From NCBI GenBank assembly GCA_963693365.1, contig CAVNZM010000011.1:5227921-5291920 (forward strand): a stretch of DNA of 64,000 nt. The letters are read 5' to 3'. Numbering within the stretch: the stretch's first letter is position 1; each line of letters opens with the position of its first letter. The stretch comes from Amoebidium appalachense. Its lineage: Eukaryota > Protista > Ichthyosporea. The notes beneath the pieces were generated by a model. The model had not been told where the DNA came from. It was given only the letters and a program-made list of their open reading frames with translations, and ran no database searches. Below are positions 113-38,637 of this stretch, piece by piece. Position numbers and translations under genes: made by a program.

Positions 113-3100
113 CCTGACGGTCTCCTGCAAATTTGCTGTGTCTGAGAAGTCGATCTCAGCCTGTACCCTCTCCTGGTACCACTTGATCCATTGCTGCCAC
201 TGCGCACGAAAATTATTATTATCATCATCATTTTTAACATCATAACTACTACTACTACAACTTACCATAATTATTTTCTTCCCCCCATCTTTCCTCCCAT
301 CTTTTTTTCTTGCTTCTTTGGTTGGTTGGTTGGTTGGTGGGTGGGTGGGGGTGGGGTGGGGGGGTGGGGGTGGGGAGGGAGGGGGGAAAAGATACAGGTG
401 GAGAAAACGCGAGAGAGGGGAGGGTAGAGAGAGGGTGAGGGGAAGAGAGAAAGAGAGAGTGCGTGTGCATGAGTAACAGGGGAGAAGGGGGGGGGGGGGG
501 GGGGGGGGGGGGTGAAGAAGTTGAAAGAAGGAGCGGAGTGGGGAATGCAGTTTGGCCAACCTTTTGCCTGTCCTCCTCCTCTTTTTGGAACGGAGACGTC
601 GATGCCAGCTTTGTTGCCCTATACAACAATCGTCAATGTTTTGACCCCCCCCCCCCCCCCCCCCCCCCCCCCCCCCCCCCCCCCCCAAATAAAAAAACCA
701 AAAAAAAAAACCGACATACACACACACACACACATGCACGTTGCAGCGCCCTCGACTCATTGTTTGCACGGAGCAACACTTAGTTTCCTAGGATCCAACT
801 TTGACCAACACATGCAAAGCCTAATGCAACACTGTTATGCAATACTACACACACACACACACACACACACACACACACACACACACACACACACACACAC
901 ACACACACACACACACACACACACACACACACACACACACACACACACACACACACACACACGCACACACGCACGGACACGCACACACATGCGCACACAC
1001 ATGCACACACACACACACACACACAAAAAAAACACACATTCCCACACGGGCTCAACCCTACCAGTCCACCCCTCCTCCAACCCGCCCCCCCACCCACACA
1101 TGCACACTACACGGATGTCGCAGCGAAACAGCCAAAAAAAAAAAAAAAAAAAAAAAAAAGGAGAAAAAGGGGGGGGGGAGGGGGGGGGGGGGGAGGAGGC
1201 TTGTGTATCTGCCGTGTGATACCTGCACACACCCCCTACTTGATCACAAACACCAATCAACAACAACAACAACAAAGAGAAAACAACACACACATGAAAC
1301 AATTGTGCGCGCACAGACACAAAACAGCATGCACAAGGGGAAGAAATCATCACTTACCGTTCCACGGATGTCAGTCTTGTCTGGAAGTAGGACAGACTCT
1401 TGCCCGTCAGTGACCGGATCACCACGTCGTGCTCAGAGGGAAAATTGCTCAGCACCTGACACAGAGCCAATCAGCAACCAGCAATAAAAAGGCGGCCAAT
1501 CCACGACCAGCATTAAACTGCAAGTCAAACATAGGCACACACTACTTGCCCCCCCCCTCCCCGCCCCCCTCCCCCCCCCCCCCCCCCCTCCTCTCCCCAT
1601 GCATTGCAAACAAATGCACACTTCACTCCCCCACCTCCCCCATGAGCTGCAGAATACATACTGCCTTCCCAAACCCACCATTCATGCACGCGCAAATACA
1701 ACCCACCTATCCCCCCCCCCCTGCCTGCCCTCCCCCTCTTCCCCCTACCCCCCTACTTGTACAAGCACACACGTGACCCCCTCCTACCCCCCCTTCCCCG
1801 ATAGAAACGCACACCCACACACTTTACCCCCCCCCCCCCCCCCCCCCCCCCCCCCCTTCATCCACACACACCCACACCCACACCCACCCACCCACCCACC
1901 CACACACACCCTCAGGTAGTCCAGCTCATATGGCATGGCGCTTCTCATCTCCCCCGCATTGTCCAGCTGTGTCATGATGTACCCTAGCAGCCCCTCTGCA
2001 AACACACAAACCACAGTTAGTCTATGTCGGCATATCATTCCGGAGGTGCAACACGTTGCATTAATGTCAGAGTATATGGCTTGCTTTGCCTTTTACTCCT
2101 CCCCCCCCCCCCCCCCCCCCCCCCCCCCGCCCGAACACACACACACACACACACACACACACACACACACACACACACACACACACACACACACACATCC
2201 CACCATCACCACCACCAACACACACACACACACACATACGCTCGCACGCACACACACGATACACACCCGCACAAAACAAAAAAAGAAACCAAAAACACCT
2301 CCACACGCACACCAACCCAGACTATGACTTACCGTGTGTTGCCTTTGCCTCGGGTGACTCCGTCCCATTGATCTGCATCGACAGTGTGCAACATCAGCAA
2401 AGTTTCCTTCACATACAACGACTACCCCCCCCCCCCCCCCCCCCCCCCCCCCCCCCCCCCCCCCCCCCAAAAAAAAAAAAAAAAAAAAAAAATAAAAATA
2501 ACCCACACACACACTTCCCCTTGGCTAACCCTCTCCAACCAATTTGGTGTAGAGCTTTGAGAAGTTCCCGTCATCCCATAGACTCTTTCCAACCAGAACC
2601 AGATCTTCCACAAAAAAAAAAAAAAAAAAATGCATAGGAAAACAGCAAACACAAGGAATAGGCCTGACCATGCACAAATATAAAAATTACATCAATTAAA
2701 GTGGGTTTTCTTTAAGACCGATTGATAGGCAGCATGAATTCGCTTGCTGTACGCCGATTCTGATTGGTGTGACCCGATTGAATTAATAGAAATTCAAAAG
2801 TAGCCAAATTTGTCTGTTTTATGACGTCATCGGCTTCCTGTTTGGACAGGATTACGTAATTTCGTTCCGATCGCTAAATTCGGGTCGGGCTAGAAAGTGC
2901 GTTGAACCTCTGGAATTTTGAGAAACGTGAATCCGACCGAATCCCTCTTAAGTCTTCGCGAATCGACCTTCGCGCTATTAGTGTAGCACCCCTGTACAAG
3001 CGGCTTCAGAGGGTGAACAAAGTCTCTGCCGATTACTTGTATTATTAAAATAAAAACCTGCGATTTGCAAAACTTTCTACCGGAAGGAAAAAGTTTCCTA

Positions 3101-37000: not shown

Positions 37001-38637
37001 TGGTTCATGTCTGGTAGTTTGTTAGTCTCCCCTGGCGCATGCAGCCCAAGGCTCAAGAGGTCATCTTGCCCAAAACCCTGCAAGGAAAGGGAAAAAATGG
37101 GGTTCAATAAAGAGGGATTCCAACAGTATTCCAACTAGTATATCCCCCCTTCCCCACCTTCCCCGCCCCTCTCCCCCTCCTTTCTCCACCAGCACCCTTC
37201 AACTTGCGTGTGTGTACCATACACAGAAAATACATACAAAAGCTCTCTCTCTCTCTCTCTCTCTCTCTCTCTCTCTCTCTCTCTCTCTCTCTCTCTCTCT
37301 CTCTCTCTCTCTCTCTCTCTCTTCGCCCTCCCCCTCTCCCTCTCCTGCACTCTCCTTTCCTCACTCCATCTCCCTCCCGACCTCCCTCCCGTTTCTCTCT
37401 CTCTCTCTCTCCCCCCCCTCTCCGCCACTCAACACCCCACCCCTTCCCCCCCCTCTCGCATCTTCGACAAAGAAAAGAAGCAAAAGGAGAAAAAGAAGAC
37501 GAAGGAACGAAAAAAAATGTGACCCCCCCCCCCCCCCCCCCTCCCCCCCCAACCCCACCCCCCCCACCCCCACTCCACCCCACCCTCCGGCACATATACC
37601 TCACAGGAACCCACCACAGTAACATTTACCCACAGAAACAACAATCAGACATGCTTATATCAGAAACACACGCTGAGAATCGAACGCGGGGTGATGCTTT
37701 ATTTGTCGTGAATAGGCTGCCAGTCACCTACATAATCTGCCAAGTTTCCAGACATAAACGAATTCTCAACGAGGTCCGGGGCAAAGTTGTTGAGATCAAA
37801 GTTGAGCACTGTAAACAGAAAAAATATATCAGTCAGTTTGTAATCAGCACATAGGTGATGGAGTTACACTGACTTTCAATTGCATGCTGTACACAGATCG
37901 TTCACGCGCACTTATGTGTGAGCATCCCGTATGAACTTAGTGGCTTCAGGCACACGAATATAGCAGATAAAGGGAAGAAAAAAAGGAAGGAATGTTAATA
38001 GCGAAAGGGATGAAAGGGAGGAGAATAGTGGCACGTGCACACACACAAACACACACACACACACACATACGCGCGCGCGCGCGCACACACACACACACAC
38101 ACACACACACACACACACACACACACACACACACACACACACACACACACACACACACACACACACACACACACACACACACACACACACACACACACAC
38201 ACACACACACACACACACACACACACACACACACACAAACACAAACACACAATCACAAGTACACACAGCGGCAGACACGCACGCACACACGCACACGCAT
38301 ACACACACGCGCGGCATGCAATGTACATCCCCACACACACAGACACACAGACAGACACACACGTACACACAGCAGGTAGTAGGGGGGAGGGGTGTTGTTT
38401 CTGCATTTGGATCGACGCATCCTTGTAGTTGTGACTGACCATGCCGAGCCCAAGTGCCACAACTAGCGTGAGAAATGCAAAGAAAGCACTGGTATGCAAG
38501 GAAAACATGCGAGTGCTTTTCATGCGAAATCTGACAGTCCACATCAGGTTGCACATACTTGTATCGTTGAAGTTGAAAGGAAACCCTCCTCCTCCGTCTC
38601 CCGCCCCGAAACCATTCGAATTCCTGCGCGGGTCCAT
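113..38637 (-). CDS. Multi-exon gene (54 phase-consistent exons, 3' end outside window): N-terminal low-complexity region + unknown domain + NB-ARC/STAND NTPase + SelO AMPylase domain (predicted fusion)
   Basis: Manual splicing from ATG 38637 ([10 protein letters not shown]) to exon 113-199 keeps one frame for 4641 nt. All junctions are GT..AG except one acceptor at 5180. STAND exon 14120-14207 ends in phase 1 (donor GTACGT) and SelO-proximal exon 12904-13002 starts in phase 1 after CCAG. No stop codon and no credible separate ATG on this path. Confidence 0.7.
2700..3368. mobile_element. TTAA-flanked non-autonomous DNA transposon (Kolobok-like), intronic
   Basis: Left TTAA|AGTGGGTTTTCTTTAAGACCCG; right CGGATCCCTAAAAGAAACCCCCT|TGAA (imperfect inverted ends). 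Subterminal inverted repeat GCATGAATTCGCTT / AAGCGAATTCATGC. The right end recurs near 32153-32183. Confidence 0.6.
4429..4682. repeat. Three tandem ~55-bp units separated by poly-C tracts
   Basis: GAACAAGAAACCCGTTTATAATCTAAAA..TAGGGAACGTGT followed by C-runs, three times. Confidence 0.9.
7749..7910. repeat. ~80-bp tandem duplication next to a SelO exon acceptor
   Basis: GTAGATATTCAGGTTGTAATTGTCAACAATCTACGATATCTGCAAGATACCTGGTTATT occurs twice. Confidence 0.9.
12240..12357. repeat. Dispersed ~120-bp repeat, copy 1
   Basis: AACGGATAACACGATGCAGAATGCAA.CCATACATAAAGAGTATGCATAA.AAGCAGAGCCCATCCTC is shared with 44785-44905. Confidence 0.85.
13080..13652. mobile_element. Non-autonomous TIR element (MITE-like), copy 1, in the STAND-SelO linker intron
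   Basis: Ends TGATGCACCG...CGGTGCATGA, flanked by TA on both sides. Aligns over its whole length with 40082-40708 (shared blocks AAGCGGAGACCGGCAAA, CTAATCCGGACGATCGCAAGATCT, GGGGAATATCTTTATCT). Confidence 0.85.
14120..26206 (-). CDS. NB-ARC (AP-ATPase/STAND) module plus short helical tail (18 exons)
   Basis: Pre-P-loop [20 protein letters not shown] (26084-26206); Walker [11 protein letters not shown] (25435-25532); YEVTMWVDC (24601-24739); Walker B WLLVLDN (23729-23794); 23151-23208; sensor-1 VIATTR (22149-22233); DAAVEFL (21413-21479); GLPL-type GCLPIALE (20977-21066); TFDEY (20051-20144); winged helix [14 protein letters not shown] (19560-19679); 18836-18893; MHD-type MHPLVQE (18079-18196); 17237-17357; RLIPHV (16543-16609); 16064-16163; 15627-15662; 14752-14832; 14120-14207. 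All phases are compatible. Confidence 0.92.
15095..15250. repeat. (GTGA)n tetranucleotide microsatellite
   Basis: Long GAGTGAGT array; one example of the many (CA)n, (GA)n, (GGGA)n and homopolymer tracts filling the introns. Confidence 0.9.
24754..24950. repeat. ~98-bp AT-rich tandem duplication (intronic)
   Basis: ACACATGAGTA.TCATATAAAT.TAAATACAAA...GTGAGGGATTAC occurs twice. Confidence 0.85.
27049..38637 (-). CDS. N-terminal ~460 aa of the STAND gene: acidic/G/M/N-rich region, KRKRKR basic cluster, unrecognised globular domain, Pro-rich linker (17 exons)
   Basis: Exons 38559-38637, 37732-37808, 36912-37077, 36169-36282, 35708-35766, 34571-34631, 34029-34130 ([11 protein letters not shown]), 33297-33420, 32757-32825, 32230-32303, 31604-31668, 30894-30989, 30113-30155, 29577-29597, 29205-29282, 28041-28141, 27049-27105 join in phase with GT..AG sites. 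No family recognised. Confidence 0.75.
32035..32183. mobile_element. Short relic of the same TTAA-flanked element
   Basis: CGACCCGGATCCCTAAAAAAACCCTCT|TTAA nearly matches 3341-3372. Left boundary is approximate. Confidence 0.5.

What the first reader, a model, noticed from the sequence alone, without database searches (positions are those of the whole stretch)
113..38637. NLR-like STAND ATPase fused in frame to a SelO/YdiU AMPylase
Seen: 54 small exons splice in phase from ATG 38637 through a full NB-ARC motif set ([34 protein letters not shown]) into a complete SelO core. The joining exons (14120-14207 to 12904-13002) are both phase 1. The SelO part has no credible ATG of its own: the only in-frame start upstream lies inside a MITE. 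Established: SelO/YdiU proteins are normally stand-alone pseudokinases that bind ATP in flipped orientation and AMPylate redox proteins, and NB-ARC STANDs are oligomerising signalling switches. Inference: a nucleotide-switch-controlled AMPylase, i.e. an immune or stress receptor with an AMPylation output or an integrated SelO sensor. I know of no described STAND-SelO architecture.
Basis: partly seen in the sequence, partly recalled or inferred. Interest (0 to 1): 0.93.

Follow-up and report, generated by a model that had tools for sequence, protein, structure and literature searches.

The report
NLR-type switch fused to SelO enzyme
In a single-celled relative of animals, one spliced gene joins an NLR-type nucleotide switch to SelO, an AMP-transferring enzyme so far described as a stand-alone bacterial or mitochondrial protein; the same fusion is predicted in a related species, and SelO likely serves as the switch's built-in sensor outside mitochondria.

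Summary
The fusion is real. My model has 53 exons (38637 to 113, minus strand) and reads open for 1,520 aa. The junction 14120 to 13002 is spliced in contigs of two runs from one sample. One contig is 5,029 nt, the length expected for the whole mRNA. Creolimax CFRG2126T1 is one gene model with the same layout, 51% identical over 1,438 columns across the junction, with Pfam NB-ARC and SelO above threshold. Sphaeroforma has the halves as near-adjacent models. The host is an ichthyosporean by nearest relatives. Layout: low-complexity N-terminus; a conserved domain of unknown fold that the finding does not mention; NB-ARC; a short helical remnant in place of the TPR array; SelO with intact catalytic motifs. 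The STAND half is nearly as conserved as the enzyme and no expansion was seen, which argues against a typical immune receptor. By STAND layout SelO sits in the sensor slot and the unknown domain in the effector slot (inferred, untested). My searches found no paper on this architecture, and earlier SelO fusions were judged artefacts. New variant of STAND proteins; interest 0.72.

The parts
113..38637 (-). Whole gene within the window: 53 exons, 1,520 aa open, continues past the window's left end (about 76 aa more by Creolimax)
   Evidence: model; colinear with Creolimax CFRG2126T1; 5,029-nt contig fits: 2,936 nt upstream of exon 34 against 2,826 coding
34029..38637 (-). Exons 1-7: G/N/D/S-rich low-complexity N-terminus (aa 1-200) ending in the basic run KRKRKR (aa 205); no mitochondrial-type presequence by charge
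   Evidence: composition; 2 basic and 3 acidic residues in the first 30; 42 of 189 identical to Creolimax in a forced alignment
28041..33420 (-). Exons 8-14: conserved N-terminal domain of unknown fold (aa about 205-395, starting at the end of exon 7)
   Evidence: 123 of 191 identical to Creolimax; 79-89% identical fragments in unnamed relatives; no family or fold assigned
27742..27750 (-). Possible 9-nt exon in the unconserved linker; phase-neutral, unverified
   Evidence: AG and GT flanks only
22149..26206 (-). Exons 17-22: NB-ARC nucleotide-binding domain with Walker A (aa 487), Walker B (aa 572) and sensor-1 TTR (aa 600)
   Evidence: Pfam NB-ARC 31.9 and 30.8 bits in the Creolimax and Sphaeroforma orthologues, cut-off 23.5
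18079..21479 (-). Exons 23-28: helical domain with GxP (aa 659) and winged-helix domain with MHP motif (aa 801)
   Evidence: the orthologue model is mostly pLDDT 80-97 here and matches CED-4, Apaf-1 and plant resistosomes
14752..17357 (-). Exons 29-33: short all-helical domain where relatives carry a long TPR array; ends in the conserved KRQRR
   Evidence: 82 of 129 identical to Creolimax; TPR arrays in relatives; helices, pLDDT falling to 40-57 at the end
14120..14207 (-). Exon 34: linker exon, last exon of the STAND half
   Evidence: (spliced to exon 33 by loose-end match and to exon 35 by joint)
13074..13658 (.). MITE-like element inside intron 34, 31-nt terminal inverted repeats; holds the in-frame ATG at 13120
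113..13002 (-). Exons 35-53: SelO domain with LKG lysine (aa 1111), RSSIRE glutamate (aa 1134), two arginines (aa 1181, 1188), NTDN (aa 1268-1271) and DYGP (aa 1280)
   Evidence: invariant columns in 40 SelO proteins; solved SelO chains at E about 1e-73 for the orthologue
5081..5181 (-). Exon 46 with a non-AG acceptor (reads CG after a CA run)
   Evidence: the exon aligns to Creolimax; not checked in RNA

Best explanation
One spliced gene encodes a roughly 1,600-residue chain in which a SelO domain with intact catalytic motifs follows an NB-ARC switch in place of the usual repeat sensor, and SelO likely acts as the built-in regulator of that switch, with the conserved N-terminal domain as the likely output, probably in the nucleus or cytosol rather than mitochondria. 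Shown: one reading frame, a spliced junction, the domain order, conservation in another genus, intact motifs in both enzymes. Inferred: the NB-ARC part rests closed on ADP. A change sensed by SelO (the redox state of its C-terminal CxxC tail, seen in the two orthologues, or ATP/NAD in its pocket, possibly relayed by AMPylation within the chain) would release it, allow ATP exchange and oligomerisation, and bring the N-terminal domains together. Their target is unknown; DNA binding is a lead only.
For: Junction spliced in 2 of 3 runs, and the contig length fits the whole model. Creolimax has one 1,765-aa model, 734 of 1,438 columns identical, with NB-ARC and SelO above Pfam cut-offs. The nearest STAND relatives have an N-terminal effector (TIR, HTH, BTAD, Goodbye) or none, then NB-ARC; 11 of the 12 scanned end in TPR arrays (Atlas 0.96-0.98). 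The N-effector / C-sensor rule is stated in PMC4986451 (passages). Here the TPR array is reduced to about 130 helical residues and SelO follows. The N-terminal domain is as conserved as the SelO core (64% each). Basic motifs of nuclear-localisation type recur in the orthologues and the N-terminus is not presequence-like. Walker A, Walker B, sensor-1 Arg, GxP and MHP are kept in all three species.
Against: No activity, localisation or direction of control was tested. SelO keeps its full catalytic set, which fits an output role as well. STAND proteins with a C-terminal effector exist (MalT, recalled). The N-terminal domain has no assigned family or fold. The RNA comes from one sample, as assembled contigs, and only the exon 33-36 junctions were seen directly. 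An exact 234-nt contig lies inside intron 34 (13733-13966) at depth 3.7 against 153.7 for the spliced contig, so a minor STAND-only or unspliced transcript is possible. Sphaeroforma is annotated as separate genes.
Confidence: 0.4

Rival explanations
1. STAND-gated AMPylase: the switch senses a signal through its helical or N-terminal domain, and oligomerisation turns on SelO, which AMPylates cytosolic or nuclear targets.
For: All catalytic motifs are intact. The activation-loop cysteine of the regulatory disulfide (C272 in PMC8097203, passages; placed on the 478-aa chain) is Pro in the window and Sphaeroforma and Ser in Creolimax, so another control may have replaced it.
Against: Pro at that site is common in stand-alone SelO: 32 of 87 motif rows against 18 Cys, 27 unassigned, so the loss is not specific to the fusion. 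It leaves the equally conserved N-terminal domain without a role, and enzymatic effectors of this STAND class are normally N-terminal.
Confidence: 0.3
2. Passenger fusion: the halves work independently, with SelO released by cleavage, an internal start or alternative transcription and sent to mitochondria as usual.
For: SelO is mitochondrial in all eukaryotes studied (PMC3281104, section 7). Internal Met residues exist at aa 1011 and 1043. The fused SelO groups with the animal-type protein. Sphaeroforma is annotated as split.
Against: The fusion is shared by lineages whose SelO cores are 64% identical. The linker is short and partly conserved (14 of 39). No contig of the deep run covers 13044-13457 of the intron just upstream of exon 35, while one joins across it. 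The internal Met residues lie inside the SelO N-lobe.
Confidence: 0.12
3. Innate immune receptor (NLR proper) that detects a pathogen, with SelO as a decoy or as a death effector, possibly through NAD hydrolysis like TIR or SIR2 STAND effectors.
For: The fold matches CED-4, Apaf-1 and plant resistosomes. SelO can hydrolyse NAD to NMN and AMP (PMC13443136, whole text). The relatives include TIR- and SIR2-bearing STANDs.
Against: No repeat array, no expansion seen (1 hit at E below 1e-30 among 312), slow evolution, 0 PADLOC matches. The NADase activity needs the C-terminal selenocysteine, while both orthologues end in a cysteine motif; the window's own C-terminus lies outside the window.
Confidence: 0.15
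4. Two neighbouring genes wrongly merged, like earlier SelO 'fusions'.
For: Three earlier SelO fusions were judged artefacts (PMC3281104). Many long SelO entries look like merged neighbours. Intron 34 is the second longest of 52.
Against: Spliced joint at canonical ends in two runs, loose ends matching exons 33 and 36, a 5,029-nt contig that fits the full model, and the same join in Creolimax. Exon 34 read-through gives only simple-repeat peptide before a stop at 14012.
Confidence: 0.03

Closest known systems
Bacterial and fungal NB-ARC-TPR STAND proteins (PF00931 + DUF7779 + TPR; NCBIfam FxSxx_TPR-like; fungal Goodbye-NB-ARC)
   Same: NB-ARC, helical and winged-helix core at 22-34% identity, same motif variants.
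   Different: TPR array cut to a short helical domain and followed by SelO; N-terminal domain is none of TIR, HTH, BTAD, Goodbye by Pfam; long low-complexity N-terminus; FxSxx_TPR score 63 bits against a cut-off of 300.
SelO / YdiU protein adenylyltransferases (PF02696; PDB 6eac, 6iii, 6k20, 9jym)
   Same: Kinase-like core and catalytic motifs; C-terminal CxxC-S-S tail in the two orthologues; C-lobe insertion of the animal type.
   Different: C-terminal domain of a 1,600-1,765-aa chain, no presequence-like N-terminus, no activation-loop cysteine, cysteine rather than selenocysteine in the orthologues, long stem branch 0.77-0.85.
CED-4 / Apaf-1 / plant NLR resistosomes
   Same: Best structural matches for the switch, Foldseek E 2.7e-9 to 2e-8.
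   Different: No CARD, CC, TIR, WD40 or LRR domain by Pfam; no sign of family expansion.
Plant NLRs with integrated domains; MalT/AfsR-type STAND regulators (both recalled; PMC9528084 seen only as a search listing)
   Same: A foreign domain at the sensor end of a STAND; possible DNA-linked output.
   Different: No LRR; the integrated domain looks catalytically intact and slowly evolving; no DNA-binding domain demonstrated.
Database entries with SelO plus a STAND domain (P0042 goby, P0071 and P0072 Pseudogymnoascus)
   Same: Both domain types in one predicted protein.
   Different: SelO comes first and is followed by what looks like a complete separate NLR with its own N-terminal domain; no similarity to this N-half. 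Probably merged neighbours; not tested.

Membership tests
STAND NTPase, NB-ARC class | Walker A GxxxxGKT, Walker B hhhhD, sensor-1 arginine | tested here: met
   aa 487, 572, 600 in the model; kept in both orthologues
STAND NTPase, NB-ARC class | Helical GxP domain and winged-helix domain with MHx histidine after the ATPase core | tested here: met
   aa 659 and 801; orthologue model matches CED-4 and Apaf-1
STAND NTPase, NB-ARC class | Pfam NB-ARC above gathering score | tested here: met
   31.9 bits (Creolimax) and 30.8 bits (Sphaeroforma) against 23.5; scored on orthologues, as single window exons gave only weak P-loop hits
STAND NTPase, NB-ARC class | ADP/ATP exchange and oligomerisation | not testable with these tools
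   needs biochemistry
NLR immune receptor | C-terminal superstructure-forming repeats (LRR, TPR, WD, ANK) | tested here: not met
   no repeat family at E up to 1 in the orthologue; about 130 helical residues only
NLR immune receptor | Known N-terminal effector domain | tested here: inconclusive
   conserved domain present but unassigned
NLR immune receptor | Role in non-self sensing or cell death | not testable with these tools
   no functional data
SelO AMPylase | PF02696 domain with Lys, Glu, two Arg, Asn and Asp of the flipped-ATP site | tested here: met
   Arg176, Arg183, Asn253 and Asp262 from PMC8097203 passages, the Lys and Glu roles recalled
SelO AMPylase | C-terminal [C/U]xx motif | tested here: inconclusive
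   present as CxxCSS in both orthologues; the window ends before it
SelO AMPylase | Activation-loop cysteine for the regulatory disulfide | tested here: not met
   Pro or Ser in the three fusions, but Pro is common across the family, so this is not strictly defining
SelO AMPylase | Mitochondrial targeting in eukaryotes | tested here: inconclusive
   first 30 residues not basic or presequence-like; no targeting predictor was run
SelO AMPylase | AMP transfer from ATP | not testable with these tools
   needs an assay
HSF/ETS/IRF winged-helix DNA-binding domain (for the N-terminal domain) | Three-helix, four-strand winged-helix fold and family profile match | tested here: inconclusive
   model pLDDT 49; 5 of 50 rows are HSF, ETS or IRF domains but at Z 2.4-2.8; no profile or sequence hit

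The most novel reading that the evidence does not exclude
A eukaryotic one-component regulator: a STAND switch with a divergent winged-helix DNA-binding domain and an activation-like tail, controlled by an integrated redox- or nucleotide-sensing SelO that AMPylates its own switch or chromatin partners. Ichthyosporeans would have moved the animal-type mitochondrial AMPylase into a nuclear signalling machine, the first bona fide multidomain, non-mitochondrial eukaryotic SelO.
Probability: 0.18. Interest if true: 0.92.

Novelty: new variant of a known kind. Interest (0 to 1): 0.72.

Why it matters
SelO has been treated as a stand-alone, and in eukaryotes mitochondrial, enzyme, and its few predicted fusions were dismissed as annotation errors (PMC3281104). 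This one has spliced-RNA support and is shared across genera. It adds an AMPylase to the domains wired to STAND switches and gives a natural case for asking how SelO activity is controlled and what it modifies outside mitochondria. It also shows a slowly evolving, repeat-less STAND protein in close relatives of animals, which bears on whether NLR-type switches had non-immune roles before animal immunity. The orthologue is in Creolimax, a cultured species with a published genome, so it can be tested.

Tried and rejected
No whole genome is held, so copy number and a second SelO gene in this organism are untested. No RNA holder is on record as RNA; the three runs are guessed RNA from one sample, and run X3 laid nothing. 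The 5' end of the long contig was not checked directly, so its match to exon 1 rests on length alone. Search with the orthologue's N-half among proteins of 970-3,089 aa: only itself, 1 of 7,988 candidates. Long SelO proteins: 65 hits, of which I scanned 25 with Pfam; none of the 92 other proteins then held matched the N-half (best E 1.4). N-terminal domain: Atlas scores of 0.81 or less with MLKL-like helical bundles, below the chance line; model pLDDT 30-73 by block in the long model and 49 alone, without its first helix; no Foldseek hit at E 0.001; VIA best Z 3.2; Pfam and PDB sequence searches blank apart from one E 0.22 row. Docking of the winged-helix plus helical part on SelO: no answer, score 0.17 against a mark of 0.34, alignments not used (collected). 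Locus scans found no relatives: 46 and 410 pattern matches in metagenomes, 224 in prokaryote genomes, none confirmed. PADLOC 0. Loss of the activation-loop cysteine as a fusion-specific trait: rejected. Earlier scan findings: none. CFRG2126, PF02696 and NB-ARC are not in the 3 supplements of PMC4739763 held as text, nor CFRG2126, SelO or NB-ARC in its main text. Several exon rows were misaligned in A1 and A4; A1 was folded regardless, A2 and A4 were not folded.
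Full report
Observation. The window is intron-rich eukaryotic DNA with simple-repeat introns. Reading, I built a chain of 53 exons from ATG 38637 to 113: 4,560 nt, 1,520 aa, no stop. All 52 donors are GT; 51 of 52 acceptors are AG. The exception, before exon 5081-5179, reads CG at the end of a CA run. 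Introns are 290-1,177 nt; the one between the halves is 1,117 nt, second longest. It holds an element with 31-nt terminal inverted repeats (13074-13658) and a second copy near 40078-40590.

One transcript. Three runs were listed, all from one sample and only guessed to be RNA. Laid on 12860-14227, contigs of X1 and X2 both skip exactly 13003-14119 with canonical ends, with 90 and 44 nt on the shorter side; X3 laid nothing. Their loose ends match the start of exon 36 and the end of exon 33. The X1 contig is 5,029 nt at depth 153.7. It has 2,936 nt upstream of exon 34, where the model has 2,826 coding nt, leaving a 110-nt leader; it has 1,906 nt downstream of exon 35, where the model has 1,547 nt, leaving 359 nt for the missing C-terminus and trailer. 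Against a pure picture, an exact 234-nt contig lies inside the intron (13733-13966) at depth 3.7, so a minor unspliced or shorter transcript is possible.

Conservation. The best hits of a SelO exon are Sphaeroforma arctica SARC_06034 and Creolimax fragrantissima CFRG2126T1. The Creolimax model is 1,765 aa and aligns to mine in one piece, 734 of 1,438 columns identical, straight through the junction. Pfam gives NB-ARC 31.9 bits (cut-off 23.5) and SelO E 9e-99. The N-half search returned S. arctica SARC_06036, 70% identical to Creolimax. It and SARC_06034 both list a 76,147-bp contig and are two locus numbers apart, so I read them as one gene split in annotation; this is inferred. Thirteen short unnamed environmental proteins are 48-89% identical to parts of the N-half, and 21 of 26 internal alignment ends fall within 3 residues of a window exon border, against 23% by chance; several come from the same contigs, so they are not independent. 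In SelO trees the window is sister to Sphaeroforma plus Creolimax (100/100) on a long stem. This trio groups with animal, choanoflagellate and oomycete SelO at 100/98 (35 rows; 10 of 45 proteins dropped by my motif cut), but without starred support (32 rows). The host is therefore most likely an ichthyosporean outside that pair, and the fusion predates their split.

Anatomy. Identity to Creolimax by region: low-complexity N-terminus 42 of 189; N-terminal domain 123 of 191; ATPase core 84 of 187; helical domain 36 of 75; winged helix 63 of 114; following helical domain 82 of 129; linker 14 of 39; SelO core 239 of 375. A model of the orthologue's N-half is confident over the switch and matches CED-4, Apaf-1 and plant resistosomes. 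The nearest sequence relatives of the switch are NB-ARC proteins of bacterial and fungal type at 22-34% identity, most with long TPR arrays and varied N-terminal effectors. SelO keeps the residues invariant in a 40-protein alignment. The activation-loop cysteine is absent, but so it is in many stand-alone SelO proteins. The N-terminal domain could not be assigned. A weak model gave 5 HSF, ETS or IRF rows among 50 at Z 2.4-2.8, which is a lead only; a spacing resemblance to those families is recalled, not tested. Basic motifs recur in the orthologues, and the first 30 residues are not presequence-like.

Mechanism. In this STAND class the effector is N-terminal and the sensor C-terminal (PMC4986451, passages). 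Here SelO stands where the TPR array stands in relatives, and a domain as conserved as SelO stands in the effector slot. I therefore favour SelO as the built-in regulator of the switch (0.40) over a switch-gated AMPylase (0.30), an immune or NADase receptor (0.15), independent halves (0.12) and a merged model (0.03). The NADase idea rests on PMC13443136 (whole text), which says selenocysteine is required; both orthologues end in cysteine motifs. None of these steps is tested.

What is known. PMC3281104 (passages and part 1 of section 7) found three SelO proteins with extra domains, called them likely artefacts, and states that SelO is mitochondrial in all eukaryotes studied. PMC8097203 (passages) describes the flipped-ATP mechanism. 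Full-text searches found 0 papers with both SelO and NB-ARC and 0 with three of YdiU, STAND, NLR, AMPylase; the listings showed nothing on this architecture. The library lacks most subscription papers; the primary SelO papers of 2018 and 2026 were not read, and preprint supplements are closed. Among 65 long SelO proteins, 3 of the 25 scanned carry a STAND domain, in the reverse order and probably as merged neighbours.

Verdict. This is a real, conserved and apparently undescribed STAND-SelO architecture: a new variant of a known kind, interest 0.72.

Noticed in passing
window 5180-5181 (minus strand): The acceptor of a conserved SelO exon reads CG instead of AG at the end of a 100-nt CA run; assembly slip, allele or non-canonical splice site.
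   Followed up: partly
window 13733-13966: An exact 234-nt contig inside intron 34 at depth 3.7 in run X1: pre-mRNA, DNA or a minor transcript end.
   Followed up: no
window 13074-13658 and 40078-40706: Two copies, 83% identical, of a MITE-like element; an RNA-like contig of 1,846 nt matches a third, diverged copy.
   Followed up: partly
window 42806-42985 (minus): Exon of a DNA polymerase delta subunit 4 gene, Pfam PF04081 E 7e-19.
   Followed up: partly
window 52662-52832 (plus), gene probably continuing to about 62300: Exon of an API5 (apoptosis inhibitor 5) gene, Pfam PF05918 E 2e-13.
   Followed up: partly
window 47394-49353 (minus): Secreted-looking protein: signal-like start, Cys-rich region, long Pro/Thr/Val-rich stretch and C-terminal G-Y-[DN]-[RK]-x pentapeptide repeats; no Pfam family. 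Possibly a cell-wall protein.
   Followed up: partly
window 39550-39700: Two tandem copies of a roughly 70-nt unit about 1 kb upstream of the gene's ATG (seen).
   Followed up: no
P0069, P0074, P0076, P0078, P0079, P0081: Six fungal entries join SelO to the 78-kDa NADH dehydrogenase subunit; probably conserved neighbours merged by annotation.
   Followed up: no
P0030: A moth entry of 1,061 aa holds two SelO domains, although PMC3281104 reports SelO absent from insects.
   Followed up: no
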